From a virus, in UHGV virus genome UHGV-0134778: a stretch of 64,000 nucleotides of DNA. One strand, 5' to 3'. Under the pieces are notes generated by a model that was given only the letters and a program-made list of their open reading frames with translations, made no database searches and had not been told where the DNA came from. Numbering within the stretch: the first letter of the stretch is position 1; each line of letters opens with the position of its first letter. The position numbers and the translations under genes are program-made. Positions 9,742 to 26,319 of this stretch are shown here, one piece after another.

Positions 9742-9843
9742 ATGGGCATGATTAAGAAATTAGTCCCAAATGTAGAGATTGCATGCTTTGAAATTATGTT
9801 TGCAATCGCAGTTGTAGTTAATGTGTTAGGTTACGGCTATTAA
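9742..9843 (+). CDS. micro-protein, hydrophobic (33 aa)
   Basis: ATG 9742 after AAGGTG; sequence IACFEIMFAIAVVVNVLGY is transmembrane-like. Below the track cutoff. Confidence 0.3.
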   Translation: MGMIKKLVPNVEIACFEIMFAIAVVVNVLGYGY

Positions 9844-9870
9844 TTATCAAATAATTGAGGAGACCTCTAA

Positions 9871-10140
9871 ATGAAAATTAAATTATTCAAAACTGAGCTG
9901 GCAGACAAAAACTGCGGACTGGTTGAAGGCATGATCGTTGAAGCACAACCAGTTGACTACATGAAGGTGGTTCGTGATGCCCTGGGTGAAGGTTTTGATC
10001 TGATGGAGCCAGCTCTGCGAGAAGATGTCATCGAGATGGCTAAAAAGCACACACCGGAAGGTTTGGTAGTGTTTGTTGCACCAGGTAACGGGGAAGAGTT
10101 GATTGTAACTCCGGATGTGTATGAGGTTGTAGAAGAGTAA
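9871..10140 (+). CDS. small acidic protein, EVVEE-tail paralogue family
   Basis: MKIKLFK... ending ...YEVVEE; RBS GAGGAG. Confidence 0.5.
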   Translation: MKIKLFKTELADKNCGLVEGMIVEAQPVDYMKVVRDALGEGFDLMEPALREDVIEMAKKHTPEGLVVFVAPGNGEELIVTPDVYEVVEE

Positions 10141-10232
10141 TCCTGCTTGGGTTGGAATACTTTCCTCGACAAGAAAGGTTTATAATTATTTGTGGGAAAG
10201 GAATCCCCATCTCTTACCAGAGGTGATACTAT

Positions 10233-10496
10233 ATGATTGTTTATTTTAAAACTTCAGGTGGATACCCTGATTCTCAAAGCTTGATTGGAAAAACGTGCAC
10301 AGCATACTCACCTCTTGATGAGGAGGTAAGTGGTATCCTACGAGATATGTATCGGATTGATCCACAAGAAGCTTTTGATCAAAACCTTGTATTTGTCAAG
10401 GGATCAGACATAAAGTCTTTGGGGGCATTCCCTGAAGCAGATGATGATGCTGTTTATTCGTTTATGACACCTTTTGAAGCTATGGTTGTGGGGTAA
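10233..10496 (+). CDS. small acidic protein related to the EVVEE family
   Basis: ...LVFVKGSDIKSLGA... core resembles 8142 and 8359. Confidence 0.5.
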   Translation: MIVYFKTSGGYPDSQSLIGKTCTAYSPLDEEVSGILRDMYRIDPQEAFDQNLVFVKGSDIKSLGAFPEADDDAVYSFMTPFEAMVVG

Positions 10497-10500
10497 GAAT

Positions 10501-10833
10501 ATGAAAGTACGCTTTATTGGTGAAACAATTCCTGTGCATCTCCGGTCTCCTGAAGACTCTGCAGATCTTGCATCTCAAAAGGCGAGAGGGTATGATAAGA
10601 AAGTGATCTCAAGCAATGTAGAGCTTGAGGCCACCAGTCTGCCTGACCCAGCTGCATTCTTCAATCATTATGGCTACTATTTTAGCAATCTGATGAATAT
10701 TGGTGAGCTTGTGTTTATTAGTGGTGGAGAGATAGTTAGCAAGCTTGGTGGAGATCCGGATATCTTTCATGAAACCTGTCCTTTTGCATTTGTGGTGGGT
10801 TCAGATGTGGAAGTTATTGAGGAGGTTCGGTAA
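10501..10833 (+). CDS. small acidic protein, EVVEE-tail paralogue family
   Basis: MKVRFIG... with LVFISGGEIVSKLG core and C-terminal VGSDVEVIEEVR. The track ORF from 10474 overlaps the previous gene. Confidence 0.5.
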   Translation: MKVRFIGETIPVHLRSPEDSADLASQKARGYDKKVISSNVELEATSLPDPAAFFNHYGYYFSNLMNIGELVFISGGEIVSKLGGDPDIFHETCPFAFVVGSDVEVIEEVR

Positions 10834-11228
10834 TGGTAAGTCTATACCGTGTTGAGTATAGCTCGGATACTGTATACAACGTAAGAAGCAAAGATCGCAG
10901 TGATAGAGTGCAAGAAATGTATGTTCTTGCAGATAGTCCGTTATCTGCAGCGTTCAAGGCAGGAGCTCTTGCATCTCGTTGGAAATTTGAGGGTGGATCT
11001 TTCTATGAAGAAACCCTCGAAGATTCTGTTGTTATTTCTTCTGTAGAGGTTTCAACCGACTACGAAGGGAAAAAGTTCGTAATGCGGCACCCACACAGCA
11101 ACATTGCGTACTACTGGGATGTTCTGAACAATGAGTGGACACCTGATCTTCAGAAGGCCACTGTTCTAACCCCATTCCTGGCAGATAAGTTCCCACCAGA
11201 AGGTAATTTATCTGCACTGTTTCAGTAA
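10833..11228 (+). CDS. hypothetical protein, paralogue of 8626..9024
   Basis: 131 aa; shares the HP..YW....WTP block with 8626..9024. Confidence 0.5.
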   Translation: MVSLYRVEYSSDTVYNVRSKDRSDRVQEMYVLADSPLSAAFKAGALASRWKFEGGSFYEETLEDSVVISSVEVSTDYEGKKFVMRHPHSNIAYYWDVLNNEWTPDLQKATVLTPFLADKFPPEGNLSALFQ

Positions 11229-11239
11229 TTTTATGCCAC

Positions 11240-11275
11240 ACAGGTGTTGACAACACCAACCCTGTGTGCAATAAT
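11240..11275 (+). promoter_or_regulatory. sigma70-type promoter overlapped by nested palindromes (candidate operator)
   Basis: TTGACA (11247-11252), 17 nt, AATAAT (11270-11275). CACAGG/CCTGTG and GGTGTT/AACACC inverted repeats are centred on the -35. Confidence 0.5.
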
Positions 11276-11304
11276 ACCTTCATCTTAACAAGATAGGAGA
11301 CCGA

Positions 11305-11565
11305 TTGATGAAGATTAAATTGAAAAACCTTGAAACGGCAGAGATTCAGGAAGGTGTTGATTTCCGTTCTAAAGATGGAGACATCCTAGAGGCGAATGTC
11401 CCGACATATAAGTTGATTAAAGGTTTTGGCAACGTTCCGGAGGAGGATATTACAGACATTCTTATGATGTTGATCCTTGACGGGACTGTGTTTGTAGGTG
11501 AAGGTGAGAACGCTATTGCAATCCCGAGCCATTTTTATGAAGTAGTTGACGAAGAGGTGCTGTAA
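11305..11565 (+). CDS. small acidic protein, EVVEE-tail paralogue family
   Basis: MMKIKLKNL... ending ...YEVVDEEVL; preceded by the palindromic promoter at 11240-11275. Confidence 0.5.
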   Translation: MMKIKLKNLETAEIQEGVDFRSKDGDILEANVPTYKLIKGFGNVPEEDITDILMMLILDGTVFVGEGENAIAIPSHFYEVVDEEVL

Positions 11566-11916
11566 ATGAAAGTAGAGATCACAGGTTTTGATATGAATGC
11601 GGTTCCGGAAGATATTTTAGCTAAACTCCCGGAAGGTTTTGGTAACGGTGTTGTGGTTGATGCTGTTCCTCCTACCAAAGACATCCTGCTGCAGTATGGT
11701 GTGGCAGAGGAAGATGTTGATAAAGTTCTTACAATGATGGCAATCGACCGTGTTGTCGTTGTTAAAGGTCTTGAAGGTTTTGATAACGATCCTCTGATTA
11801 TTCGTGGTGATGACTATCGTATCATCGACAACGAAGGTCAGGGGTTCTACGAACCTTCTGCTGAAGATGTTCTTAACTTACTACTGGAAGCAGGTACCGT
11901 AGAGGAGGCAGAATAA
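11566..11916 (+). CDS. small acidic protein related to the EVVEE family
   Basis: MKVEITGF... ending ...GTVEEAE; start adjacent to upstream stop. Confidence 0.5.
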   Translation: MKVEITGFDMNAVPEDILAKLPEGFGNGVVVDAVPPTKDILLQYGVAEEDVDKVLTMMAIDRVVVVKGLEGFDNDPLIIRGDDYRIIDNEGQGFYEPSAEDVLNLLLEAGTVEEAE

Positions 11917-12245: not shown

Positions 12246-12532
12246 TGAAAGATTTGGTTAAGATCAAGATTAAAGACACCAATGGAGAACTCAGCCATTT
12301 TGGAATTAACGATGGTGACGAGCTGATCGCCCACCTGCCTACCAAGGAAGTTGTAAGCAAAGCGGTTGCCGGAGAAGAAGATGCAATGCAGGCTGCAGGT
12401 GTGGATGAAAACTATGTAGCAATGTGTATGTGCCGAGATCAGGTTGTTCTGTATAAAGCGTATCGACCAAATGGAGCACCTGAGTGGCTTGTTTTCCGAC
12501 CCGAAGGATATGAAATTTTAGAGACGCTATGA
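12245..12532 (+). CDS. hypothetical protein
   Basis: 95 aa; ATGA coupling. Confidence 0.5.
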   Translation: MKDLVKIKIKDTNGELSHFGINDGDELIAHLPTKEVVSKAVAGEEDAMQAAGVDENYVAMCMCRDQVVLYKAYRPNGAPEWLVFRPEGYEILETL

Positions 12533-12612
12533 TAAATCTTGCCAAGGTTGCAACGGCACTGTTAATTATTTGCTGGATAGTGACCTTGGCACTATGTCTT
12601 GTATTTCATTAA
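12529..12612 (+). CDS. micro-protein, hydrophobic (27 aa)
   Basis: ATG overlaps the upstream stop; ALLIICWIVTLALCLVF is one transmembrane-length segment. Confidence 0.25.
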   Translation: MINLAKVATALLIICWIVTLALCLVFH

Positions 12613-12621
12613 GGGGGCTGT

Positions 12622-12885
12622 ATGAACATCTTGGTGTGGGTTGTAGCAGTAGCGTTTGTTGCGTGCCTCTCTTGTTGGGTTGCTGTGAGGATTTCTATAG
12701 CCACTCTTCGGAAATTAGGGTTCTCAGAGTGGGATATTAATATCCTTTCTTTTCGCAATGAGACAATCTCAGCCGCCCTGCTGTGTAAGAAGTTTAAGTG
12801 GGAACCTTGTGAGGTCATGAACTATCTAAGAACAGGAGATATTCCTGAGAGATTTAAAAAAGTTCTTGACGGCAAAGACAAATGA
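12622..12885 (+). CDS. membrane-anchored hypothetical protein
   Basis: N-terminal ILVWVVAVAFVACLSCWVAV; RBS AAGGGGG. Confidence 0.45.
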   Translation: MNILVWVVAVAFVACLSCWVAVRISIATLRKLGFSEWDINILSFRNETISAALLCKKFKWEPCEVMNYLRTGDIPERFKKVLDGKDK

Positions 12886-12913
12886 TAGTATAGTGACTAA
12901 CAAGAGGTGAGGA

Positions 12914-13054
12914 ATGACTGATTTTACTGAAGCTTTAATGATGGCCTTATCTGTTTTAGCGCTATCGGTGTGTTTTGGGGCGTTATTCACATCTCTGGTT
13001 AAAGTTTTACATACCATATTCTCACCCAAGGAGCACAGTAATGACGAAGATTGA
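12914..13054 (+). CDS. micro-protein, hydrophobic (46 aa)
   Basis: ATG 12914 after AGAGGTGAGG; MMALSVLALSVCFGALF is a membrane segment. Confidence 0.3.
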   Translation: MTDFTEALMMALSVLALSVCFGALFTSLVKVLHTIFSPKEHSNDED

Positions 13055-14368: not shown

Positions 14369-14528
14369 CTGGTGCACGATTCCATACCTTAAGCAGTTAA
14401 TCTCATTACAGAGCGTTTAAAGGCGGCTTACAAGCAACTCTCTATTTCGAGCGTAGCGAGAACGCACGTCCGTTTTGACCCAAATCACCATACGCTCGGA
14501 TTTTAACCAAACCCTCGCGGCGTTTCTG

Positions 14529-14557
14529 TTGACACATTACCGCTCCAGTGATAATAT
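14529..14557 (+). promoter_or_regulatory. sigma70-type promoter
   Basis: TTGACA (14529-14534), 17 nt, TAATAT (14552-14557). Confidence 0.5.
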
Positions 14558-14577
14558 CCACACATCATTTGGAGAAT

Positions 14578-14679
14578 ATGGGATACACAATGAAAACATT
14601 GTCAGAGGTTTTGGTGGTGATCCTGATGATCATTACGTCCATAGTGGCTGTTGCCGGAATACTCACGGGTGGAACATGA
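14578..14679 (+). CDS. micro-protein, hydrophobic (33 aa)
   Basis: ATG 14578 is 21 nt after the -10 of promoter 14529-14557 and preceded by GGAG; VLVVILMIITSIVAVAGIL is transmembrane-like. Confidence 0.3.
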   Translation: MGYTMKTLSEVLVVILMIITSIVAVAGILTGGT

Positions 14680-15009
14680 TAAACACACATGCATCTGAAG
14701 AGACATCCAAAGGAGTGACTATATGTCCCTTGGCTGAGCCAGTGAAAGAGGAAAACTTAGATTCTGAAGATTCTCCATCTTCGCTCCAGGTAGATCCTGA
14801 GGCTGATGACCTAACGTGGGAAGACATCGTAGACATCTGGTTCTCCATTATGCCTGAGCACGAAGAGTTCAGAGGTGGCAGACTATGAAGCACCGAGCCC
14901 ACACAGGTTCCTCATGCTAAAGCATGGCCTGAAGAGGCAAACGTGCATAATTCCTGTGCATTGGAACGTATAAAACCCTGTTCACACTCTCATTTCTAGA
15001 GGAGATTTC

Positions 15010-15225: not shown

Positions 15226-15350
15226 CACACAATTAGTTGCCCGGCTAAAGTGCTGGAAGCACCCATAACATCTTCCAACTAAATTTCCTACCAACACAGT
15301 TACTTACCCACCACACATGACTGTTTGCTTGTTTAGTGAGCAGTCATCCC

Positions 15351-15378
15351 TTGACATTCTTGCCTATCTTGATAAAAT
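15351..15378 (+). promoter_or_regulatory. sigma70-type promoter reading into non-coding DNA
   Basis: TTGACA (15351-15356), 16 nt, TAAAAT (15373-15378); no ORF with an RBS in the next ~300 nt. Confidence 0.45.
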
Positions 15379-16671
15379 TAAGTTCTTCTCTTTTCTTTTA
15401 CCGAGTAATTCGGGTTTTCTGTTCTCTTCGGTTTGAAGGGGTATGGAGATACACCTGAGTGAACAGGGTGAACAACCGAACCTTTAGCTATGGCATTAGC
15501 ATGGCGAAGCGGACGGGTGACGAAAGAGGGGCCGGAGGACACCAGTCACTGCCATATAGTATATGGGTGATAACCTGAAGAGTCTGAATAAGTGTTTAAG
15601 TACCAGTCAGAGGAAAAGGTGAATGGTAGCCGAAGGGGGAGGGGGGTTTCTTATATCTTTAATTTGTATACTTTATATACACTTGTAAACCAATTCAATT
15701 AGGATCTGTTTACCACACAAAGTGGATGGAGACAAATATCACCTATTAAACTTGAATTATTTATAGAAAATACCACAACACTACTTAAGTCTTTGATTTT
15801 ACACACAAATCCTACAGATACTCACCCTCCATATTTAACATACTTGTAACATATCCCATACTCTACCTGTCTGATCAATTTACCCAACTACATCCCCATA
15901 TTTTTCCTGTCTGTACTACCCCTGCCCCGCCGGGAGTCCCGTCATATCTGGCTTCCCAGCAAATATCACACCCACAAATATCATTGCCTGAAGAGGGTTT
16001 CATCCCATAATACACACCTTGCCTGAAGAGCGATTCATACACCAACTAAATTTTTTAATTGACCCCTCCCCGCCGCCGGAGAGGTTGGCTTTTCCCACAC
16101 AGGCCTGAAGAGTCAGCCAGAAATATCTGAACAGGCCCAGTTATACCACGATTTTGACATGACCGACAGGAGTGCTACCCTGTCAGGAGCCGGTAGCGAC
16201 TGGAGTGCTGCCAGGCGGACGAAATGGGAATACTTCTCATTCTTATAACAATTCTCAAATATCGAGGCAGTGAGGCAAATTAATAGGTGAGGCCGTTCAC
16301 ACAGTGGCACAACATTTGCAACCTATCTTGTGGGGTGAATGAGAATACCTATCATTGTGAGAATAGTTATCATTACGGGCAATTTAACATAATACCCATT
16401 ATGCGCACCACTGGCGATACATACAGGGATTGATAACATGGGTTACTGTTTACGCACATAACAATTATATTTCTTACTATTTGTGCGGGATATAGTTAGC
16501 AACCAATAGATTAGATATTGACCTGCGGACTTCTGACCGTCCAGACGTCTAAACGCCCACACAACAAGGGTTATACATACATTCCTGAATGTAAACAGGG
16601 CCGCAAAAATGCTACCATACCAGTTTGTAAATTTTTCATGCAGCACTTGACAAAGAGGAGAAAAACTTGTC

Positions 16672-16720
16672 TGACACTTTTGCCACTTTTGACACTTTTA
16701 CCTTTGACACAATATGACAC
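16672..16720. repeat. cluster of four TGACAC boxes
   Basis: TGACAC at 16672, 16690, 16705 and 16715, embedded in repeated CACTTTTGACAC words. Confidence 0.5.
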
Positions 16721-16750
16721 AATAACGGCTGTTACTATTCCATATCTCAC

Positions 16751-16805
16751 TGTTTACGCATAGACTGTTTACGCCTGAATAGTTTACGCCCAAACTGTTT
16801 ACACA
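16751..16805. repeat. four iteron-like direct repeats (C/A)TGTTTAC(G/A)C at 14-16 bp spacing
   Basis: TGTTTACGC at 16751 and 16767, AGTTTACGC at 16781, TGTTTACAC at 16797. Further copies of CTGTTTACG at 16446 and 17267, and inverted at about 16590. Confidence 0.6.
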
Positions 16806-16815
16806 GAGATGATGA

Positions 16816-17109
16816 GCCATGCCATTCGTTTGCATGAAAACAATTAACAAGATAACAATTAACAAGTTAATAATCTTTCGCTGGCTATGCCAGGTGACTA
16901 GGTCACCCCTTCGGGCGTTTATATGACATAATATAAAAGCAGGGCAACTATTAGAAGATCTATAGTTGCCTTGCTTGTTATGTCATGATTAACTAAATAC
17001 AAGGCAACTATGATCTGAGTAATAGATTGCAGAAAAACTATCACGGGGGTGATGGTTACTGCTTTTATATTATGTCGCGACTCCGTCGCGCCATGCCATT
17101 CGTTTGCAT
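16816..17109. repeat. 20-bp direct repeat pair flanking a nested inverted-repeat structure
   Basis: GCCATGCCATTCGTTTGCAT at 16816-16835 and 17090-17109. Inside: 18-bp perfect inverted repeat GACATAATATAAAAGCAG (16926-16943 / 17059-17076) and four copies of GGCAACTAT/ATAGTTGCC. Confidence 0.65.
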
Positions 17110-17722
17110 AGTTGCCTTATTGTTACAGGTAAAATAATTACATTATTAATTATTTCTTATCTTTCTCTTAGTCATCTAATGATTCCAGTCAGTATAGTAA
17201 TGTACAGTAAACATTAGACGACTAAAGATTTCTCTGTTTATGATAACTCATCGTGATAATTTCGGGCTGTTTACGAAAAATGTTGACACCTGAGCTGATT
17301 TATGTTATGCAGTCTACACGAATAATTATTTTATGCAGGTATTGACTATTCCGTTATTCTGTGGTTGGAATAAATACTTTGCAGGCTATAGAATGGCGTG
17401 CGTACGTGAATTCTGAGATCTGGCGGCTATAGTTATACTCGATTTTTCGCGTAGAACACGCTTTAGATGCTGTGTAAGTGTATGACTTATAAAGATTTTT
17501 AGTTGTTGACAAGATATTGGAGATGTGCATCAGGTTAAAATTTGTGCAATAGCGGCATTACGTGCACTTTTGGGAGAGAAAACGGGTAAAAATGGACTTG
17601 CTACCACACAATGAAAAATTATGCAATAGTTATTTTCCATGTATATTTGTACAGTATGTGGGATTGATGGCTAGTCAATTATTCCACTTGCCAGGTAGGG
17701 CCGTTTATGGTAGGAGAAGAGC

Positions 17723-17750
17723 AGACAAAAAGAAAGGGGCCTAAGCCCCT
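17723..17750 (-). terminator. intrinsic terminator closing the leftward gene block
   Basis: Minus strand AGGGGC-TTAG-GCCCCT followed by TTCTTTTTGTCT; lies 20 nt past the stop of 17770..18189. Confidence 0.7.
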
Positions 17751-17769
17751 TGATAATTCAGTTAAAAAA

Positions 17770-18189
17770 TTATAATGATTCGTATATTTCAAAAATCCGA
17801 TTTGCCAGGTCGTTACGGTAGCTGAATTTTTCCTCACGTTTGATCATAAGATCTTTATAGCCGTACTCTTTAAGCACTTCATTAACTTTATGGCGGCATA
17901 CTTTCATATTATCCTGCGCGTCACCAATAAATCTGTTGCTATGGTGCATGGCTTTAATTTCTTCTTCCAGGACCAGGGCAACTATGCGGACCGGATCAAG
18001 CTGATAGGCGGTAACATCCATGCGGCATTGTAAACGGCTTTTTACGTCTGCCACCGGATATACTGCAACCTCTTCCCCGTCAACATTGACAATAATTAGT
18101 TTACCATCGATTTCGAATCCTTTCGCCGCCGGACCGTGACAAAAAGCGTTATCAAAGCTATATGCCGGATTATTAGATTTAATGTTCAT
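17770..18189 (-). CDS. hypothetical protein
   Basis: 139 aa. First gene upstream of the minus-strand terminator at 17723-17750; promoter 18239-18267 and RBS AAGAGG upstream. Confidence 0.55.
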   Translation of the reverse strand: MNIKSNNPAYSFDNAFCHGPAAKGFEIDGKLIIVNVDGEEVAVYPVADVKSRLQCRMDVTAYQLDPVRIVALVLEEEIKAMHHSNRFIGDAQDNMKVCRHKVNEVLKEYGYKDLMIKREEKFSYRNDLANRIFEIYESL

Positions 18190-18238
18190 GGTGTTTTTAC
18201 CTCTTAGTTAATTTTCTTACAACTTCCCTTCAAAAAAG

Positions 18239-18267
18239 AATATAGCAAAACTGCCGATCCCTGTCAA
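18239..18267 (-). promoter_or_regulatory. sigma70-type promoter
   Basis: Minus strand TTGACA (plus 18262-18267), 17 nt, TATATT (plus 18239-18244). Confidence 0.55.
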
Positions 18268-18333
18268 CCAGGGATAGCGTAATTTTTATGTGATCAAGGG
18301 GCTTTATTGCCCCTGACCATGTAACTTGTTGTA

Positions 18334-18597
18334 TTATTTGTTGCTCATCCAGTTTTCCCAAGCTGCCTGATAATCTGCCTCACTACGGCGGATCTCTTCT
18401 TGCTCTTCAAGGCGGATCTCTTCTTCCAGGTACCCCAAGATGTCAGCCTTTTTAGTCTGGCGTAGCATCCAGTCATCTTTTTTGCGAGTGAAGATCTTAT
18501 AAGCTTTCTCGCAAACCTCTTTTTTGCTACCTTTCTGGACTTCAAGAACACGATAAGCCATATATTGAACTAATTTGAGCTGATCAAGACGTTTCAT
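18334..18597 (-). CDS. hypothetical protein
   Basis: 87 aa; leader contains hairpin GGGCCAAAAGGCCC and RBS AAAGAGG. Confidence 0.5.
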   Translation of the reverse strand: MKRLDQLKLVQYMAYRVLEVQKGSKKEVCEKAYKIFTRKKDDWMLRQTKKADILGYLEEEIRLEEQEEIRRSEADYQAAWENWMSNK

Positions 18598-18657
18598 GAT
18601 GTTTACCTCTTTGTGCGGTTCTGATTAGTGGGCCTTTTGGCCCGTGTCATTATCTTA

Positions 18658-18930
18658 TTACTTATGGCGGCAGAATTCAAGCGTTTTTAATTGATAATCT
18701 TCCTCAGCTTGGAGTACGACCGCCTCGATCATTTCGTTGGCATTGTTAAAGCCATAACCTTTAGCGAACTCATCCGCGCCACCTTCGTGATCATGTTCTG
18801 CGTTCATCGCTTCCACAAAATGGAATTCCAAATTGTTGAGGTAGGGGCTTGATGTTCCGTCCTCTTTTTCGATGAGATCCCAAATAGCATTAAAACGTGA
18901 TTCGACTTCTTGATTAATCCAGCTTGACAT
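18658..18930 (-). CDS. hypothetical acidic protein
   Basis: 90 aa; promoter 18985-19013, leader hairpin, RBS AGGAGAGAGG. Confidence 0.5.
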   Translation of the reverse strand: MSSWINQEVESRFNAIWDLIEKEDGTSSPYLNNLEFHFVEAMNAEHDHEGGADEFAKGYGFNNANEMIEAVVLQAEEDYQLKTLEFCRHK

Positions 18931-18984
18931 AGTGTTTTCCTCTCTCCTGGTTGTTGTGTGGGCACTTTTGCCCCTTCAAGATAA

Positions 18985-19013
18985 ATGTTACCTCACCCCA
19001 TGGCAGATGTCAA
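18985..19013 (-). promoter_or_regulatory. sigma70-type promoter
   Basis: Minus strand TTGACA (19008-19013), 17 nt, TAACAT (18985-18990). Confidence 0.45.
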
Positions 19014-19044
19014 CGGTTTTTATAGTTCTTATATGACAGGCAGG

Positions 19045-19061
19045 CCCGGTGATTGTCTCCC
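19045..19061 (-). repeat. 17-nt motif GGGAGACAA(C/T)CACCGGG, copy a (minus orientation)
   Basis: Plus strand reads CCCGGTGATTGTCTCCC; downstream of the minus-strand promoter 19090-19118. Confidence 0.5.
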
Positions 19062-19089
19062 CCTGTTCCCAAGTGCCGCCCGTTTAATA

Positions 19090-19118
19090 AGAATAGCAAA
19101 AGGGGCCGAACAAGTCAA
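19090..19118 (-). promoter_or_regulatory. sigma70-type promoter followed by the 17-nt motif
   Basis: Minus strand TTGACT (19113-19118), 17 nt, TATTCT (19090-19095); motif copy at 19045-19061 lies 28 nt downstream of the -10. Confidence 0.45.
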
Positions 19119-19147
19119 CCCCAAAATCAGTACCAAAACACTTTTAT

Positions 19148-19459
19148 TTATACGGTCCGATCATTGGCCTTTGTCCAGGACCTGGCGATCCGTTTCCCGG
19201 TCACCTGGAACGGAGGCTGCATTGTGTGTAATGAGTCCAGAGTAAGGGAGGACCGTTTACGGCGTATCTTCAGGATCGCTAACGTATTGTCCATCTCACG
19301 GCCAGGTCCTGGGCGGTATGGTGTGCCTCCAGCGTTAAGGTTGATGATCTCATGTATTGAGATCCGGCGTTGTTTTGCTTCCGCATCTTTGAAGATAGCC
19401 AGCGGAGGCGCTATGCGTTGCCGATACCAATCTAAAACGGTTGGCGTAATAGCGATCAT
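19148..19459 (-). CDS. hypothetical protein
   Basis: 103 aa; co-directional with neighbours and coupled to 19456..19647; preferred over the opposite-strand ORF 19053..19508. Confidence 0.4.
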   Translation of the reverse strand: MIAITPTVLDWYRQRIAPPLAIFKDAEAKQRRISIHEIINLNAGGTPYRPGPGREMDNTLAILKIRRKRSSLTLDSLHTMQPPFQVTGKRIARSWTKANDRTV

Positions 19460-19647
19460 ATTTTACCCCCTATGTAGTCCGGTCGGTTTTTCTCTGTCAT
19501 ACGCTTAAGCAATTCTTGCATGTTGCTTATGGCTTGTAGTGTATCCTCTTCAAGGGATGAATCAAGATAATCAGGATCATTCTTCACCTTGCAATGATTA
19601 TGATAACGCAGCACCGCCAGTACTTTTTTAACTTCTTCTGCTGTCAT
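19456..19647 (-). CDS. hypothetical protein
   Basis: 63 aa. Confidence 0.45.
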   Translation of the reverse strand: MTAEEVKKVLAVLRYHNHCKVKNDPDYLDSSLEEDTLQAISNMQELLKRMTEKNRPDYIGGKI

Positions 19648-19655
19648 TATTCCAC

Positions 19656-19790
19656 CTAAAACAATGAGTTAATATATAACATTAGATCGCTGACCACCAG
19701 GACAACACTGATCAGCACATGCCTAACCATAAAGGGAAAGATCGCCAACATTGCCACCACGATCCCCATGGTAATAATTATCTTTCTCAT
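19656..19790 (-). CDS. micro-protein, hydrophobic (44 aa)
   Basis: ATG immediately after the stop of 19793..20077; sequence is almost entirely hydrophobic. Confidence 0.3.
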   Translation of the reverse strand: MRKIIITMGIVVAMLAIFPFMVRHVLISVVLVVSDLMLYINSLF

Positions 19791-19792
19791 GG

Positions 19793-20077
19793 TTAACGGT
19801 TCACGTAAGTTTTCCCGTTTACGGTTATCGGCAGATCCTCCAGGTCTGGATCTTCTTTAAGGTCGCGAGCAAGTTCACCGCACCGGACGCCCTCGAATCC
19901 GTAGTACTCTGTCGTTCCGTCCTTAAAAGTTTTTGCGGCAAGGCATAAGCGATAAGTAACACCGATTTGATTGACGGCATGGATATCAGTTAGATCTACC
20001 TCTTTTGCCAGCTCTTTGGCCATTACAGGCGCATTAAGTCCAATAACCAAGGCAACCACTGCGATCATCTTTTTCAT
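19793..20077 (-). CDS. secreted/periplasmic hypothetical protein
   Basis: N-terminal signal-peptide-like MKKMIAVVALVIGLNAPVMA; RBS AGAGAATAG-like. Confidence 0.5.
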   Translation of the reverse strand: MKKMIAVVALVIGLNAPVMAKELAKEVDLTDIHAVNQIGVTYRLCLAAKTFKDGTTEYYGFEGVRCGELARDLKEDPDLEDLPITVNGKTYVNR

Positions 20078-20166
20078 GTTTTCTATTCTCTTTCTGTTGC
20101 GTTTAAGGCGGCGACAACCGCCTGTTTATGCTTTGTCGGTTAATAGGGCGTACGGTATAGATTAAA

Positions 20167-20391
20167 CTATGCTGTACGCTCAACTATGACAACGGCTTGA
20201 GGGATCTCACCTTCCACCACTATCAAGGCTTTTTTCTGCGTAATAGATATCTTTACCCGCTTCAGCGTGGCGGTAAAGTCTTTCATTTCGTCACGTGGTG
20301 TTTTAGTGCAATGCCAGATCTCAGGCTTACCTATTTGCAAGCCGCGTAAAAATTCCGTTTTTCCTGTTTTGTTCGTGATCATTTGTTTCAC
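20167..20391 (-). CDS. hypothetical protein
   Basis: 74-aa ORF. Confidence 0.45.
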   Translation of the reverse strand: MKQMITNKTGKTEFLRGLQIGKPEIWHCTKTPRDEMKDFTATLKRVKISITQKKALIVVEGEIPQAVVIVERTA

Positions 20392-20392
20392 C

Positions 20393-20497
20393 TTACCCGA
20401 TACCGTTGGAAGACAAGATCATATTAGCCATGGTTGCAATCAGGCCAATACCCAGGGCAATAACCAGGATCACCGCATCAATTAATTTCTGTTTCAT
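20393..20497 (-). CDS. micro-protein, hydrophobic (34 aa)
   Basis: RBS AAGAGGA 7 nt upstream; VILVIALGIGLIATMANMIL is a membrane segment. Confidence 0.3.
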   Translation of the reverse strand: MKQKLIDAVILVIALGIGLIATMANMILSSNGIG

Positions 20498-20587
20498 CTT
20501 GTTTTCCTCTTCTTGTTCCAGGTGGCGGACCATTCCGCCGCCTTATGTATTATGCTTTGTTAGATGGTTGTTTGTTGTCAAACTGTT

Positions 20588-20767
20588 TTAACGATAATCA
20601 TCGTACGCTTTATTAACCTGGCGAATATAACATTCAAAAGCCAGATCAATAGATTTATATTCACGGATATATTCACCATAGGAAACTACATACATTTCTA
20701 TAGCCTCCTCATATGCGAGGAGAATAGAATCCAAGCCTACGATCTCAGTCTTTGCAATAATAGCCAT
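20588..20767 (-). CDS. hypothetical protein (59 aa)
   Basis: Read manually; promoter 20817-20847, leader hairpin GGGGCAACAAGCCCC and RBS AAAGAGGA precede the ATG. Below the track cutoff. Confidence 0.4.
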   Translation of the reverse strand: MAIIAKTEIVGLDSILLAYEEAIEMYVVSYGEYIREYKSIDLAFECYIRQVNKAYDDYR

Positions 20768-20816
20768 GATTTTTTATCCTCTTTGTGGTTGGTGGGGCTT
20801 GTTGCCCCCTTTGATT

Positions 20817-20847
20817 TATATACTACAGTCTTATAGGGTCATGTCAA
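20817..20847 (-). promoter_or_regulatory. sigma70-type promoter
   Basis: Minus strand TTGACA (20842-20847) overlapping the upstream stop codon, 16-19 nt, TAGTAT/TATATA. Confidence 0.5.
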
Positions 20848-21077
20848 CTATTTTCAAAAAATTTTTCTGCTGTGATATTTTTCCCGGTAGGGTTCGCTAC
20901 TTTTAAAATTCTATCATGCACCGGACGCCCGAAAGAATAAGATCCGTATACAGTAAACCAATAATCACCGTCAGGCTGTACTATTACCGCCGCATATGGT
21001 ACGCCTTTTTCATTATTGCTCACAAAATAGATCACATTGCCATTAATAGCCTCAGCGCGTTTAATTTGTTCCATCAT
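20844..21077 (-). CDS. hypothetical protein
   Basis: 77 aa; RBS AAGAGAGG. Confidence 0.5.
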   Translation of the reverse strand: MMEQIKRAEAINGNVIYFVSNNEKGVPYAAVIVQPDGDYWFTVYGSYSFGRPVHDRILKVANPTGKNITAEKFFENS

Positions 21078-21133
21078 GATGATTTGCCTCTCTTTATTTT
21101 CATAATTGGGGGGCCTTTTCGGCCCCGCCAGGT

Positions 21134-22379: not shown

Positions 22380-22499
22380 TCAGTTGCTTACAGCGATAAA
22401 ATACATCCCTACGCCTAACAATATTTCAAGGGCGATGATCTCCAGCCATACCATAACACGGCGCGCCTTATCGGTGCGGGGCTTATCCTTGGGTGTCAT
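22380..22499 (-). CDS. micro-protein with hydrophobic C-terminus (39 aa)
   Basis: Read manually; followed directly by the minus-strand terminator at 22338-22375. Confidence 0.3.
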   Translation of the reverse strand: MTPKDKPRTDKARRVMVWLEIIALEILLGVGMYFIAVSN

Positions 22500-22718
22500 C
22501 GTCTCCCTCTTTCCTCCTGTTAGTAGTGACGTGGTTTACAATGGTCCCCAGGAGTACTATCGCCACGCACATTACGAGAAAAATTATTTCTTCCGTTGTT
22601 CGGTCCATTGTTATAAAACCTCTCAAGATCAGGCCTAAAAGTAAATCTTTCGTTATTGAATCCGTCACGCCAGGCGGCTGGCTTCAAATCTTCACTAAAT
22701 GGATTAATTAACGTGGCA

Positions 22719-23090
22719 TTATTTAAACGGTTGGCCCACATATTTTCTATTCCTCTCAAATAGGCGATCCGCCTCAGTTAAACATATCTCATGGGCGTGA
22801 TCTCTGGTTTTAGCTTCATCAAAAACCTGTTGTGCAAGGCTGCAACGTAGGGAGACTGGAAGATCACTATAATAGGCGTTGACAAACGTTTGAGCGTCGT
22901 ACAGGTCTGAAAATACTTTACCCTTTCTATTATTCCCCTTGTCAACAATTGCAAGGATAACCAATACAATAGTTGCAACCACCCCCAGGAAAATAGATAT
23001 AATAAACCATAAAAAGGCGGATCTTCCCATCTTGCCAGCGATCCAGGCGTTAAACAAGGCAACCAATATAGCCAAAATAATAAATTCCAT
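22719..23090 (-). CDS. membrane protein
   Basis: Two to three transmembrane segments in the first 60 aa (IILAILVALFNAWIA, FLWFIISIFLGVVATIVLVILAIV). Confidence 0.5.
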   Translation of the reverse strand: MEFIILAILVALFNAWIAGKMGRSAFLWFIISIFLGVVATIVLVILAIVDKGNNRKGKVFSDLYDAQTFVNAYYSDLPVSLRCSLAQQVFDEAKTRDHAHEICLTEADRLFERNRKYVGQPFK

Positions 23091-23573: not shown

Positions 23574-23627
23574 CTCGCCCCCTTGATTTTTAATATAGCA
23601 GGTTTTTAGATTATTGCAACACTTTTC

Positions 23628-24251: not shown

Positions 24252-24279
24252 GATATTTTCTCCTGTTTTCTTTATTAGT

Positions 24280-24298
24280 GGCGGGAAGTTTTCCCGCC
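24280..24298 (-). promoter_or_regulatory. leader hairpin, GGCGGGAA...TTCCCGCC family
   Basis: Perfect 8-bp stem with 3-nt loop between promoter 24309-24336 and the RBS of 23628..24251. Related hairpins at 26144-26160 and 26825-26843. Confidence 0.45.
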
Positions 24299-24308
24299 TG
24301 TGTGTTTA

Positions 24309-24336
24309 ATTATACTTATTGAGATTTACTTGTCAA
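24309..24336 (-). promoter_or_regulatory. sigma70-type promoter (consensus hexamers)
   Basis: Minus strand TTGACA (24331-24336), 16 nt, TATAAT (24309-24314). Confidence 0.65.
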
Positions 24337-24586
24337 CACTATTTTTTAAATTATTGTGGCGTAAAATGTTCAAGATCTCTTCAACGTCATCAACACGGCG
24401 GCAATTTTTAAACGCTACCAATTGCCCCATGATTTTAATCACTGGGCGGCCTTGCCAGTGCCCCTGGAGAAAGCGCGCCTTGACTTTATCGGTGGAGCTA
24501 TCACGCCACCAAATGGCCTTGTTGTTGCAGTAGTAAAAATTATTCAGGACAACATCAACCTTATCAAAATTTTTTAATTTACGCAT
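24326..24586 (-). CDS. hypothetical protein
   Basis: 86 aa; promoter 24619-24646 and RBS AAAGGAG upstream. Confidence 0.5.
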   Translation of the reverse strand: MRKLKNFDKVDVVLNNFYYCNNKAIWWRDSSTDKVKARFLQGHWQGRPVIKIMGQLVAFKNCRRVDDVEEILNILRHNNLKNSVDK

Positions 24587-24618
24587 GGCGTTTACTCCTT
24601 TCTCTCTTTGATGTGGTT

Positions 24619-24646
24619 AGTATAGCTAACCTGTTTAAGATGTCAA
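24619..24646 (-). promoter_or_regulatory. sigma70-type promoter
   Basis: Minus strand TTGACA (24641-24646), 16 nt, TATACT (24619-24624). Confidence 0.55.
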
Positions 24647-24790
24647 GCTTTAAATAAAATCACTGTCAATAATATTTTTAACGCCATAAAACGGCCCTGG
24701 GCGATGTTTTCAGGTTAAGAAAGGGGATTGCATAGGTGGGGGCCTTTTTGGCGCTTATAGGGCCAACCAGGGGCGCTATTCGTAGGATAG

Positions 24791-24818
24791 AAATAAAAAG
24801 CCCCGCACAATGGCGGGG
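24791..24818 (-). terminator. intrinsic terminator (minus strand)
   Basis: Minus strand CCCCGC-CATTGT-GCGGGG followed by CTTTTTATTT. Confidence 0.55.
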
Positions 24819-24827
24819 CGTTGGTTG

Positions 24828-25025
24828 TTATTTGTCTTTATGGCGGTATCGTTCTGCCTGTCGTTCACGTTCCAAAAGTAGGCCAGGCAATTTACGATCA
24901 TAATGATTTCGCCAGATCTTTCCAAATCTTTTTGGCTTATTCAGTTTATTGTTACGCTGGCGGCGTTCCGGCAACTCTTCGGAATCATGAGGACGCTTTA
25001 CAATTTTTTCGAAATTAATTTTCAT
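24828..25025 (-). CDS. small basic protein
   Basis: Arg/Lys-rich; start taken at the ATG after AAGGGGGAAG. Terminator 24791-24818 follows. Confidence 0.4.
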   Translation of the reverse strand: MKINFEKIVKRPHDSEELPERRQRNNKLNKPKRFGKIWRNHYDRKLPGLLLERERQAERYRHKDK

Positions 25026-25386
25026 AGCTTCCCCCTTTACTGATTTCAATATTTGCCTGAATCGCCCGGATACGGCGTTTTATAACCTCCTGATCCGTGC
25101 AATCATATCCCCAAAAGTCTACAATTTTTGCGCCCCCAGCTTTTAAGCGGTATAGTGTTTCTTGCATCTTGTAAGCTGGGATCGGTCGTGGTGTTACCTG
25201 GTCGCCTTTCTCATCCTTGTACTTGATAATATAATCTTCATTGTCGTTGAATACCCAAAATGGGTATTCTGTAAGGGCGTTGCTCTCTTTTTCGTTTTTG
25301 GATTGGATCTTGTTTACAATTAAAGCCGTAGCAATAGCGCCAATGATAAAACTTGCACCGCTGATCATGTTACTTTCTCCTTTCAT
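25015..25386 (-). CDS. membrane-anchored hypothetical protein
   Basis: N-terminal ISGASFIIGAIATALIV; RBS AAAGGAGA. Confidence 0.5.
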   Translation of the reverse strand: MKGESNMISGASFIIGAIATALIVNKIQSKNEKESNALTEYPFWVFNDNEDYIIKYKDEKGDQVTPRPIPAYKMQETLYRLKAGGAKIVDFWGYDCTDQEVIKRRIRAIQANIEISKGGSYEN

Positions 25387-25443
25387 GGTGTTAATAAATT
25401 ATCTTTATAGATGGCCCTGCAGCCAGGACCACCGAAAAAATAA

Positions 25444-25689
25444 CTATTTCACAATGCCTACAAAACAGATCCCGCCTTCCCCGACGTAGGCAATATCGGT
25501 CACTTTATAGTCGGTTAAGATCTGTTTATTCAGATCATTAATAAAATCGGTCATTGCGTTGGTGTAGTTGTCTTCCATATCTAAGGCATAATCCCAGGTG
25601 TAAACCTTTTTACGTCCGAAGCCTTTTACCATGATACGGGCGCTTTTGGTGTTGGTAGGCGCATAATATTTGGTGATTAGTGCTGCCAT
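25444..25689 (-). CDS. hypothetical protein
   Basis: 81 aa; downstream of 45-bp element copy 2; RBS AGAGGAG. Confidence 0.5.
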   Translation of the reverse strand: MAALITKYYAPTNTKSARIMVKGFGRKKVYTWDYALDMEDNYTNAMTDFINDLNKQILTDYKVTDIAYVGEGGICFVGIVK

Positions 25690-25732
25690 GGTTTTAACTC
25701 CTCTGTATTAGTTCAGTGTTAACAGTGTAAAG

Positions 25733-25777
25733 TTTACTTTATTGATGGCCCTGGAGTCAAGGCCATCTAAAAATAAA
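25733..25777 (-). promoter_or_regulatory. 45-bp conserved promoter/operator element, copy 2
   Basis: Identical 45-mer; the candidate -10 here is TAAACT because the flank differs. Confidence 0.5.
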
Positions 25778-25778
25778 T

Positions 25779-26120
25779 TTACTCGTTTTCTTCCAGTTCT
25801 GCAAGCTCTTCTTTTGCTTCTTCCAACTCTGTCTGTAATTCCTGGTATTCTTCATCGTCCTCAATATCCAGGCTGTCGATGTAGTCGCTAAATCCGCAGC
25901 GGTAAGCGATAGGATCTAGCTCCTTGAGGATACGCGACGGAAGAAAAGAAATGTTTCCGATCATGATTTCGCCGTAGACCTCGTCTAACCATTCATCATA
26001 GTTTTCGTCGTACTTGTCCTCGTCGATTTCAAAGTTATCGATCTTGTTCTCAAGGTCTGCGATCTGTTTTTTCAGTGCGGCAACCTGAATAGCTTTTTCT
26101 GCGGTGGTCATAGTAGTCAT
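25779..26120 (-). CDS. hypothetical acidic coiled-coil protein
   Basis: 113 aa; promoter 26172-26199, hairpin 26144-26160, RBS AAAAGGAGA. Confidence 0.5.
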   Translation of the reverse strand: MTTMTTAEKAIQVAALKKQIADLENKIDNFEIDEDKYDENYDEWLDEVYGEIMIGNISFLPSRILKELDPIAYRCGFSDYIDSLDIEDDEEYQELQTELEEAKEELAELEENE

Positions 26121-26171
26121 GGCGTTTTCTCCTTTTGTGTGTTCTGGGAAGTTTTCCCGTTTACGTGTTTA

Positions 26172-26199
26172 AGTATACCGATTCAGATTAGCTTGTCAA
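26172..26199 (-). promoter_or_regulatory. sigma70-type promoter
   Basis: Minus strand TTGACA (26194-26199), 16 nt, TATACT (26172-26177). Confidence 0.55.
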
Positions 26200-26319
26200 T
26201 TAAAAATTTAAGAAAAATTTTGCAAAACTGTTAGCGCTACTCATTAACATTTGCGCCAGGATGTACCCGACAACGCAAACGATAATAGTTACCTTTGTGT
26301 ATTGGCGTGTAGTGCTCAT
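26200..26319 (-). CDS. micro-protein, hydrophobic (39 aa)
   Basis: ATG after AAGGGGGC; lies in the leader of the transcript from 45-bp element copy 3; VTIIVCVVGYILAQML is a membrane segment. Confidence 0.35.
   Translation of the reverse strand: MSTTRQYTKVTIIVCVVGYILAQMLMSSANSFAKFFLNF

What the first reader, a model, noticed from the sequence alone, without database searches (positions are those of the whole stretch)
9742..26319. Many micro-ORFs encoding single-helix hydrophobic peptides, missed by the 60-aa cutoff
Manual reading found at least eight short genes with plausible ribosome-binding sites and one transmembrane-length hydrophobic segment: 9742..9843, 12529..12612, 12914..13054, 14578..14679, 19656..19790, 20393..20497, 22380..22499 and 26200..26319. 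Several are translationally coupled to neighbours. Small membrane peptides in phages often act as membrane-depolarising toxins, holin or antiholin-like factors, or superinfection-exclusion proteins.
Basis: partly seen in the sequence, partly recalled or inferred. Interest (0 to 1): 0.45.

Follow-up and report, generated by a model that had tools for sequence, protein, structure and literature searches.

The report
Tiny membrane-protein genes in rV5-like phage
The eight short reading frames are real, conserved genes for 27–46-residue membrane-helix peptides in the early-gene region of an rV5-like coliphage, but seven are already annotated, six were published as membrane proteins in 2013, and their function is still unknown.

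Summary
The window is an rV5-like coliphage (Vequintavirus). All eight ORFs exist exactly as stated, and each has one membrane-spanning-length hydrophobic helix.

They are genuine genes:
- They are intact in every relative that carries the segment. c1 and c2 are each intact in 118/118 phage records.
- Pooled dN/dS is about 0.28 (p≈1e-14), with third-codon-position bias. Spurious ORFs of the same size show neither.
- c5 and c6 persist under purifying selection in phAPEC8-like phages, a different subfamily.

They are mostly not new. The 2013 rV5 paper lists c1, c3, c5, c6, c7 and c8 as "membrane protein, 1 TMD". c4 is annotated in other relatives. Seven belong to PHROG families of unknown function. 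Only c2 (27 aa, 84 nt) has never been annotated; none of five variants is in a 15-billion-protein collection.

They sit in early operons with σ70-type promoters, outside any lysis cassette. Several are translationally coupled to neighbours.

Most likely they are early small inner-membrane proteins that bind host or incoming-phage membrane components. Depolarising-toxin and exclusion roles cannot be separated by computation. A holin role is disfavoured.

Interest is low. c2 is the one addition.

The parts
9742..9843 (+). c1: 33-aa membrane micro-protein MGMIKKLVPNVEIACFEIMFAIAVVVNVLGYGY (= rV5 ORF145/gp140, phrog_15151). It lies 9 nt after the HPF/RaiA-like gene. Core gene of the genus.
   Evidence: listed as 'membrane protein, 1 TMD'. 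Intact in 118/118 records. Few substitutions, so ω is not individually significant. The helix containing two Glu is invariant even in the divergent contig L018.
12529..12612 (+). c2: 27-aa membrane micro-protein MINLAKVATALLIICWIVTLALCLVFH. Its ATG overlaps the upstream stop (ATGA) and it has no SD. Never annotated. Core gene of the genus.
   Evidence: Full-length intact in 118/118 records. No PHROG or Pfam match. Five variants are absent from a 15-billion-protein collection. A 26-aa hydrophobic ortholog sits at the same junction in L018 at 53% nt identity, pN/pS 0.45; a neutral simulation keeps the ORF plus hydrophobicity in 0.55% of runs.
12914..13054 (+). c3: 46-aa membrane micro-protein (= rV5 ORF156/gp151, phrog_16755). 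Acidic N-terminus and charged C-tail. Strong SD. A σ70-like promoter lies at 12866-12894. Its end overlaps the next gene (13041) by 14 nt.
   Evidence: ω 0.21, p=2e-5. dN/dS 0.15 against L018.
14578..14679 (+). c4: 33-aa (or 29-aa from Met5 at 14590) membrane micro-protein (= RudolfGeigy bas52_0135, Murica gp132, phrog_34195). First gene behind a σ70-like promoter at 14529-14557. Its stop overlaps the next start (ATGA at 14676). Accessory: absent in NHEP1 and S127 BCL3.
   Evidence: Variable sites by codon position 1:4:13, ω 0.17, p=3e-4. This refutes the rival 137-aa TTG ORF 14475-14888 annotated in A51.2, JLBYU08 and rV5 gp157. Absences shown.
19656..19790 (-). c5: 44-aa hydrophobic micro-protein (= rV5 ORF170/gp165, phrog_16005). 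No SD; starts 2 nt after the upstream stop. Accessory, and shared with phAPEC8-like phages.
   Evidence: Intact orthologs in phAPEC8, phiWec179 and PD06 at 70–75% nt identity, dN/dS 0.18–0.31, and in IMG/VR contig L019 at 79% identity, dN/dS 0.54. AlphaFold predicts one continuous helix 2-43, pLDDT 94.6. Only a sub-threshold DUF7396 match. Absent in 4 loci.
20393..20497 (-). c6: 34-aa membrane micro-protein MKQKLIDAVILVIALGIGLIATMANMILSSNGIG (= rV5 ORF173/gp168 short form, phrog_14631). It ends 1 nt before the next gene. The N-terminal hydrophobic half varies, while the C-terminal ATMANMILSS[NH]GIG is invariant.
   Evidence: The long ATG at 20533 is not conserved and covers a hairpin at 20520-20543. 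Orthologs in four Stephanstirmvirinae phages at 62–65% nt identity with dN/dS 0.12–0.27, unannotated in those four records. 72/72 records intact.
22380..22499 (-). c7: 39-aa tail-anchored-type micro-protein (= rV5 ORF181/gp176, phrog_13629). Basic N-terminus (6 K/R), invariant helix WLEIIALEILLGVGMYFIAV with two Glu, strong SD. Last gene before the terminator at 22375-22355. Core gene of the genus.
   Evidence: ω 0.23, p=1e-3. The N-terminus diverges, with an in-frame insertion in L020, while the helix is invariant.
26200..26319 (-). c8: 39-aa membrane micro-protein (= rV5 ORF193/gp188, phrog_16391). Stand-alone with about 80-nt spacers on each side and a strong SD. The promoter TTGACA-16-TATACT begins right after its stop (26199-26172). 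The C-terminal tail MLM[SG]SAN..AKFFL[ND]F is conserved.
   Evidence: ω 0.16, p=2e-5. dN/dS 0.24 against L020.
5728..5847 (+). It lies two genes after the putative 2-TMD holin (rV5 gp129 homolog).
   Evidence: Synonymous:nonsynonymous 14:4 in three relatives. SD duplex −10.9 kcal/mol.

Best explanation
The eight ORFs, plus a ninth at 5728-5847, are independent, mutually unrelated genes for very small (26–46 aa) single-helix inner-membrane proteins. They lie in the two convergent 'small-ORF' early arms of an rV5-like virulent coliphage.

Shown:
- They are conserved protein-coding genes under purifying selection, and the hydrophobic helix is preserved.
- They sit inside polycistronic units that carry σ70-type promoters.
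- Six have their own Shine-Dalgarno site. c2 and c5 can only be translated by termination-reinitiation coupling to the upstream gene.
- c1, c2, c3 and c7 are core to the genus. c4, c5, c6 and c8 come and go between genomes. c5 and c6 are shared with phAPEC8-like phages.

Inferred:
- They are made early by host RNA polymerase and host ribosomes.
- They insert into the inner membrane, mostly N-in/C-out, because K/R residues are at the N-terminus. c3 is probably the reverse.
- Each acts by helix-helix or short-tail contact with a specific membrane protein of the host or of an incoming phage. That would retune transport, energy or envelope functions, or exclude competitors. They are not parts of the lysis machinery.

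What points to specific partners rather than bulk membrane damage: intramembrane Glu pairs are invariant in c1 and c7, and C-terminal tails are invariant in c6 and c8.
For: Identity of the genome.

Coding status:
- ORFs intact in all relatives.
- Codon-position bias 49:28:78.
- Pooled ω 0.28, p=8e-15, against 0.43–1.13 in other frames.
- Spurious ORFs have ω≥1 or are broken.
- Distant orthologs of c5, c6 and c2 show dN/dS 0.12–0.54 at saturating dS.

Membrane helix:
- KD19 of 2.0–3.1 and K/R at the N-terminus.
- TMHMM and Phobius '1 TMD' for six of them in Kropinski 2013, Table S3.
- 'putative membrane protein' in record A51.2.

Early operon context:
- σ70-like promoters next to c3, c4 and c8, and a terminator after c7.
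- rV5 annotated promoters P144–P195A.
- 33 host-type promoters in rV5.

Other points:
- Coupling.
- Enrichment: 8 of 8 micro-ORFs are hydrophobic, against 4 of 39 long neighbours with KD19≥1.6.
- Core versus accessory pattern.
- Precedent for small membrane proteins acting by binding partners: T4 Imm, a 9.3-kDa membrane protein that binds the tape-measure protein (bioRxiv 10.64898/2026.03.06.709160), and the review PMC12648545.
Against: - There is no direct evidence of translation, membrane insertion or any partner.
- No homology to any characterised protein (Pfam, PHROG, profile search).
- Neighbouring genes are all of unknown function.
- c1 and c6 are not individually significant in the within-genus ω test because they have few substitutions.
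- ω of 0.16–0.65 is looser than the long neighbours' median of 0.10.
- Early timing is inferred from promoter consensus only.
- A pore-forming or depolarising action would produce the same sequence features.
Confidence: 0.55

Rival explanations
1. Membrane-depolarising or pore-forming toxins of the type I-toxin kind. The peptides would oligomerise in the inner membrane, dissipate proton-motive force and help shut the host off. Alternatively, toxic early products would cause an abortive outcome when infection stalls.
For: - Size and architecture match type I toxins: under 60 aa, one helix and short extensions (review PMC12648545).
- Vequintaviruses were among the groups most sensitive to DNA-intercalating antiphage compounds, with an abortive-infection-like outcome. 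[quoted passage not shown]
Against: - Most are embedded in operons and translationally coupled rather than monocistronic with an antisense RNA.
- No convincing antisense promoter/terminator pairs were found.
- Invariant polar residues and tails suggest specific contacts.
- Nine different depolarisers in one genome would be redundant.
Confidence: 0.2
2. Superinfection-exclusion factors. These would be early inner-membrane peptides that block DNA entry of later-arriving phages, as T4 Imm does by binding the tape-measure protein.
For: - Early-operon location and membrane helix.
- The accessory, horizontally exchanged distribution of c4, c5, c6 and c8 is typical of inter-phage competition genes.
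- Imm precedent.
Against: - All characterised exclusion proteins recalled (Imm 83 aa, Sp, SieA, HK97 gp15, Llp) are larger.
- No sequence similarity was found.
- c1, c2, c3 and c7 are invariant core genes.
Confidence: 0.15
3. Lysis-timing components: holin, pinholin or antiholin-like.
For: - c7 lies near a 123-aa 1–2-TMD protein that the RudolfGeigy record calls 'putative holin'.
- The ninth micro-ORF (5728-5847) lies two genes after the 2-TMD putative holin proposed for rV5.
Against: - 27–46 aa with one helix is below known holin sizes.
- No charged C-terminal domain, except in c3.
- The lysin (rV5 gp89) lies outside the window.
- The genes are scattered over 17 kb in early-type operons.
Confidence: 0.06
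4. The peptides themselves have no function. The frames would be kept open only to pass ribosomes to the next gene (coupling uORFs), or they are chance ORFs.
For: - c2 and c5 lack an SD and are wedged between genes.
- c1 and c6 lack individual within-genus significance.
Against: - Amino-acid-level constraint: pooled ω 0.28.
- c6 dN/dS 0.12–0.27 and c5 0.18–0.54 at saturated dS.
- Hydrophobicity is retained at 53% nt identity for c2, with neutral expectation 0.55%.
- c7 and c8 are not followed by a coupled gene.
Confidence: 0.04

Closest known systems
rV5 ORFs 145, 156, 170, 173, 181 and 193 ('membrane protein, 1 TMD'; Kropinski et al. 2013, Virol J 10:76, Table S3) and their PHROG families 15151, 16755, 16005, 14631, 13629, 16391 (plus 34195 for c4)
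   Same: Direct orthologs at 81–97% amino-acid identity, in the same positions and with the same neighbours.
   Different: - c2 has no counterpart in any annotation.
- rV5 annotates c6 with a 12-residue N-terminal extension that is not conserved.
- rV5 annotates a 101-aa ORF over c4 that has no coding signal there.
Type I toxins of E. coli (TisB, HokB, IbsC, ShoB, DinQ, ZorO)
   Same: Under 60 aa, one hydrophobic helix, short flanks, inner-membrane targeting expected.
   Different: - No sequence similarity.
- No antisense-RNA antitoxin detected.
- Embedded in phage early operons and often translationally coupled.
- Toxicity untested.
T4 Imm and other phage superinfection-exclusion membrane proteins
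   Same: Small phage-encoded inner-membrane proteins made early. Imm acts by binding another membrane-active protein.
   Different: Imm is 83 aa (9.3 kDa), whereas these are 27–46 aa with one helix. No homology.
Bacterial small membrane-protein regulators (e.g. AcrZ, MgrB, MgtS, CydX; own knowledge and review PMC12648545)
   Same: Single-helix proteins under 50 aa that work by binding larger membrane proteins. Polar residues are conserved within the helix.
   Different: Those are host-encoded with known partners. Here the partners are unknown and the genes are viral.

Membership tests
Small single-pass membrane proteins (<50 aa) | Genuine protein-coding gene of fewer than 50 codons | tested here: met
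   ORF integrity, codon-position bias and ω 0.28 pooled. Distant orthologs support c2, c5 and c6. Translation itself was not observed.
Small single-pass membrane proteins (<50 aa) | One hydrophobic helix of membrane-spanning length | tested here: met
   KD19 of 2.0–3.1 in all eight. TMHMM and Phobius give 1 TMD for six rV5 orthologs. The c5 model is one helix, residues 2-43.
Small single-pass membrane proteins (<50 aa) | Localisation in the inner membrane | not testable with these tools
   Needs fractionation or imaging of tagged peptides.
PHROG families 15151/16755/34195/16005/14631/13629/16391 | Significant full-length HMM match | tested here: met
   E-values 1.7e-19 to 7e-35 for c1 and c3–c8. 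c2 has no family.
Holins / antiholins | One to three TMDs plus a charged hydrophilic C-terminal domain, typically 60 aa or more | tested here: not met
   27–46 aa, one helix, C-terminal flanks of 1–13 residues without charge clusters. The exception is c3, whose 21-residue tail is net acidic.
Holins / antiholins | Genetic linkage to the endolysin/spanin cassette, or late expression | tested here: not met
   The lysin is rV5 gp89, outside the window. The micro-ORFs are scattered in σ70-promoter units.
Type I toxin-antitoxin toxins | Hydrophobic peptide under 60 aa with one helix | tested here: met
Type I toxin-antitoxin toxins | Cis-encoded antisense or divergent small-RNA antitoxin, and a usually monocistronic, processed mRNA | tested here: inconclusive
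   Only weak consensus promoter hits on the opposite strand, no more than expected from shuffles. Most ORFs are inside operons and coupled. No Rfam family in the window.
Type I toxin-antitoxin toxins | Growth arrest or depolarisation on expression | not testable with these tools
   Experiment needed.
Superinfection-exclusion proteins (Imm/Sp/SieA type) | Homology to a characterised exclusion protein | tested here: not met
   No Pfam or annotated PHROG match.
Superinfection-exclusion proteins (Imm/Sp/SieA type) | Blocks entry of secondary phage DNA | not testable with these tools
   Efficiency-of-plating assays needed.
Pfam DUF7396 (c5 only) | Score at or above the gathering threshold (27 bits) | tested here: not met
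   13–17.7 bits, E 0.004–0.12, although the alignment is end-to-end. The profile search found only 3 clusters, all 44 aa.
Sec-type signal peptide / exported pro-peptide (c6, c8) | n-h-c regions with small residues at −3/−1, and cleavage | tested here: inconclusive
   c6 has MKQK + a hydrophobic core + TMA|N. c8 has R/K + a core + SSA|N. The tails are invariant. The hydrophobic cores of 15–17 residues are long for cleaved signals. No predictor was available. SignalP and Phobius found no signal peptides in related O177 phages (PMC10698182).

The most novel reading that the evidence does not exclude
c6, and perhaps c8, may not be a simple membrane anchor. Across two phage subfamilies the hydrophobic N-half of c6 drifts freely. 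The last 16 residues, ATMANMILSS[NH]GIG, are invariant and are preceded by a signal-peptidase-like T-M-A|N site. c8 shows a similar, weaker pattern within the genus: a largely conserved tail after S-S-A|N.

The active moiety could be a periplasm-exposed, possibly cleaved, peptide of about 10 residues. It would be a phage-made periplasmic ligand or inhibitor, or even an inter-cell signal, produced by a virulent coliphage.

Separately, c2 is a conserved 27-aa gene that no annotation or protein database contains.
Probability: 0.07. Interest if true: 0.65.

Novelty: already known. Interest (0 to 1): 0.25.

Why it matters
Small membrane proteins are a large part of the unexplained gene content of phage early regions.

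What this analysis adds:
- It gives a clean, evidence-ranked list of nine such genes in a phage group that infects E. coli K-12 (BASEL Bas48–59). Genetics, Ribo-seq and partner hunts are therefore straightforward.
- It corrects annotation. c4 replaces a spurious 101–137-aa ORF, and the short start of c6 is the conserved one.
- It adds one truly unannotated gene, c2. At 84 nt it is shorter than the 90-nt minimum I recall for Prodigal-type gene callers.

The existence and membrane nature of the others were already published in 2013, so the finding is confirmatory rather than new.

Tried and rejected
- **Pfam** on all eight peptides and on ten neighbours: nothing above threshold.
- **PHROGs**: only 'unknown function' families.
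- **Profile search of 1.84 billion proteins with the c5 alignment**: 3 clusters, no wider family. The UniRef label 'DUF3096' and the DUF7396 hint are unconfirmed.
- **IMG/VR scans with two neighbour proteins**: only 2–3 useful contigs.
- **The search for homologous proteins**: refuses queries under 40 aa.
- **Idea that c6 and the downstream 74-aa gene (phrog_5988) form an obligate pair**: rejected. That gene is in 263 phages, but Certrevirus and Seunavirus have an unrelated soluble gene upstream and no c6.
- **Paralogy among the eight**: only composition-level similarity, so they are not one family.
- **Long form of c6 (start at 20533)**: not conserved.
- **137-aa ORF over c4 and 61-aa ORF 22483-22668**: ω of 0.54 and 0.84, so not the coding frames there.
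- **Antisense 'shadow' ORFs with low ω**: recognised as artefacts of real genes on the other strand.
- **First whole-window gene map without strand constraint**: it masked gaps and was redone.
- **Literature search for expression or functional data on these genes in rV5-like phages**: none found.

Full report
**What the window is.**
- Window 9000–27000 matches 282 phage records. The rV5-like (Vequintavirus) ones match at about 92–96% identity; phAPEC8-like and other phages share only short segments at lower identity.
- The region corresponds to rV5 97.8–115.8 kb. The original paper describes this as part of a block of '88 mainly small ORFs', flanking a stretch with 'no observable ORFs' (PMC3606486).
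- Genes run on the + strand up to about 15.2 kb and on the − strand from about 17.8 kb.

**Checking the observation.**
- All eight ORFs are present at the stated coordinates, on the local coding strand, with ATG starts.
- Each has a hydrophobic stretch with Kyte-Doolittle 19-residue mean of 2.0–3.1.
- Junctions:
  - c2 overlaps the upstream stop (ATGA).
  - c3 overlaps the next start by 14 nt.
  - c4's stop overlaps the next start (ATGA).
  - c5 starts 2 nt after the upstream stop and ends 8 nt before the next start.
  - c6 ends 1 nt before the next start.
- Shine-Dalgarno pairing is strong for c3, c7 and c8, and moderate for c1, c4 and c6. It is absent for c2 and c5, which therefore depend on coupling.

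**Are they genes?**
- In 16 fetched Vequintavirus loci plus IMG/VR contigs, every ortholog is intact.
- tblastn against all 50,697 phage records gives full-length, stop-free matches in 118/118 (c1), 118/118 (c2), 114/114 (c4) and 72/72 (c6) records.
- Variable sites fall 49:28:78 on codon positions 1:2:3 (p=5e-6).
- Counting changes against the consensus gives 80 synonymous to 75 nonsynonymous, with a 23% synonymous-site fraction. That is ω≈0.28 (p=8e-15).
- Individually significant: c3, c4, c7 and c8 (p≤1.3e-3). Weaker: c5 (0.03) and c2 (0.053). c1 and c6 have too few substitutions.
- The other five frames give ω of 0.43–1.13.

Controls:
- Wrong-frame sense ORFs have median pN/pS of 1.48; antisense ORFs, 1.11.
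- ORFs in the gene-free 15.3–17.7 kb stretch show 100:101:101 by codon position.
- Among non-hydrophobic ORFs lying in gaps, only 20588-20767 (59 aa) is both intact and selected; it is an annotated real gene (rV5 ORF174). 19010-19099 shows a weak signal but is broken in 5 of 19 relatives. The rest are broken by indels or stops.
- Long neighbours have median ω of 0.10, so the micro-ORFs are constrained but less tightly.

More diverged comparisons settle the weak cases:
- c5 and c6 have intact orthologs in phAPEC8, phiWec179, PD06 and alia (Stephanstirmvirinae). For c6 these are 62–65% nt identical with dN/dS 0.12–0.27. For c5 (present in the first three) they are 70–75% identical with dN/dS 0.18–0.31; an IMG/VR contig at 79% identity gives 0.54. 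Synonymous sites are near saturation.
- c2 has a 26-aa hydrophobic ortholog at the same ATGA-type junction in a divergent IMG/VR contig. Identity inside the ORF is 53% nt and pN/pS is 0.45. Neutral simulation keeps an open, hydrophobic frame in 0.55% of trials.

**Annotation conflicts.**
- c4 lies inside a 137-aa TTG ORF (14475–14888) that some records annotate instead.
- Variation falls on c4's third codon positions (1:4:13), and a σ70-like promoter with an extended −10 sits inside the long ORF just upstream of c4.
- The correct reading is therefore c4 plus a 70-aa gene starting at 14676.
- The longer ATG of c6 (20533, as in rV5 gp168) is not conserved and covers a hairpin.

**Is it new?** Mostly not.
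- Table S3 of Kropinski et al. 2013 lists ORFs 145, 156, 170, 173, 181 and 193, which are c1, c3, c5, c6, c7 and c8, as 'membrane protein, 1 TMD' from TMHMM and Phobius.
- c4 is annotated as hypothetical in BASEL phages, JES2013 and Murica.
- Seven of the eight match PHROG families of unknown function at E of 1.7e-19 to 7e-35.
- A51.2 labels four of them 'putative membrane protein'.
- c2 is the exception:
  - It has no PHROG or Pfam match.
  - It is not annotated in any of seven annotated records inspected.
  - None of five sequence variants is in a 15-billion-protein collection.
  - At 84 nt including the stop it is below the 90-nt minimum of Prodigal-type callers (my own knowledge).

**Context and anatomy.**
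- σ70-type promoter matches lie directly upstream of c3 and c4, more weakly upstream of c8, and right after c8's stop. A strong intrinsic terminator follows c7.
- rV5 carries annotated σ70 promoters throughout this region.
- The rV5 lysin (gp89) lies outside the window. The authors' candidate holin is gp129, about 4 kb upstream of c1.
- Neighbours of the micro-ORFs are all of unknown function.
- The eight are not paralogs.
- K/R residues sit N-terminal to the helix in c1, c2, c5, c6, c7 and c8, which suggests N-in/C-out. c3 has an acidic N-terminus.

Conservation patterns differ between the peptides:
- c1 and c7 keep an invariant helix with two Glu, while their N-termini drift.
- c6 keeps an invariant C-terminal ATMANMILSS[NH]GIG, while its hydrophobic half drifts. 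c8 keeps a largely conserved C-terminal tail in the same way.

Distribution:
- c1, c2, c3 and c7 are present in every Vequintavirus locus covering the site.
- c4, c5, c6 and c8 are missing or replaced in some.

Hydrophobic segments occur in 8 of 8 micro-ORFs, against 4 of 39 long neighbours.

**Mechanism.**
- Homology gives no function.
- The best-supported reading: these are early-expressed small inner-membrane proteins that act through specific contacts with host or incoming-phage membrane proteins. Support is the operon context, the invariant polar positions and tails, and the accessory behaviour of half of them.
- T4 Imm binding the tape-measure protein and bacterial small membrane regulators are functional precedents.
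- A type I-toxin-like depolarising role fits the architecture equally well. It fits the operon embedding and sequence specificity less well.
- A lysis role is the least compatible.
- The 'mere coupling uORF' idea is contradicted by amino-acid-level constraint.

**Beyond the stated range.**
- A scan of window 1–49 kb against three relatives found one more conserved hydrophobic micro-ORF at 5728–5847, which is rV5 ORF131. No others were found.
- So the phenomenon is confined to the 5.7–26.3 kb small-ORF region.

**Verdict.** Novelty is low apart from c2 and the annotation corrections.

Noticed in passing
window 15230-17770: A gene-free stretch of about 2.5 kb between the two convergent gene blocks, the 'non-coding' box of rV5. 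It shows no codon periodicity, no Rfam family and no tRNA. It contains iteron-like GTTTAC repeats at 15-nt spacing (16752-16802), several direct and inverted copies of AGCAGGGCAACTAT (16934-17125), an 18-nt perfect inverted repeat (16925-16942 / 17059-17076), lower GC, and a GC-skew sign change. It looks like a replication-origin-like or other cis-acting region. Records NHEP1 and JLBYU08 fill it with tiny CDSs that are probably spurious.
   Followed up: partly
window 5377-5847: A cluster made of a 78-aa 2-TMD protein (the rV5 gp129 'putative holin' homolog), a 50-aa ORF, and a conserved 39-aa single-helix micro-ORF (5728-5847, rV5 ORF131) whose end overlaps the next gene. This is the only micro-ORF with a plausible link to lysis control.
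   Followed up: partly
window 198-311 (+): A conserved, very basic 37-aa ORF (MAKKALKKAYKKEIALELKKKHKREKKCHEDEEGVQQ) with a good SD, intact in three relatives. It is a non-membrane micro-protein candidate.
   Followed up: no
window 17770-21080: This segment, including c5 and c6, is shared at 80–87% nt identity with phAPEC8-like phages (Phapecoctavirus and Justusliebigvirus, a different subfamily). This indicates horizontal exchange of early-gene modules. One Vequintavirus (A51.2) carries the phAPEC8-type c6 allele.
   Followed up: partly
window 14475-14888; 22483-22668; rV5 gp148/gp149: Annotation inconsistencies among public records. A 101–137-aa ORF is called over c4. A 61-aa ORF upstream of c7 has ω 0.84 and is spurious; the real gene is 22520-22741. 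rV5 splits the 95-aa gene upstream of c2 into two overlapping CDSs, probably because of a frameshift or sequencing error.
   Followed up: partly
window 19010-19099 (-): A 29-aa TTG ORF annotated in RudolfGeigy (bas52_0128). It lies between a terminator and promoter-like sites, has indels in 5 of 19 relatives and is not hydrophobic. It is more likely a regulatory spacer than a gene.
   Followed up: partly
GenBank MG0656xx records (L008, L009, L011-L014, L016): About two dozen records named 'Campylobacter phage' (UNVERIFIED) are ordinary rV5-like coliphage genomes 92–94% identical to this window. The host label is doubtful.
   Followed up: no
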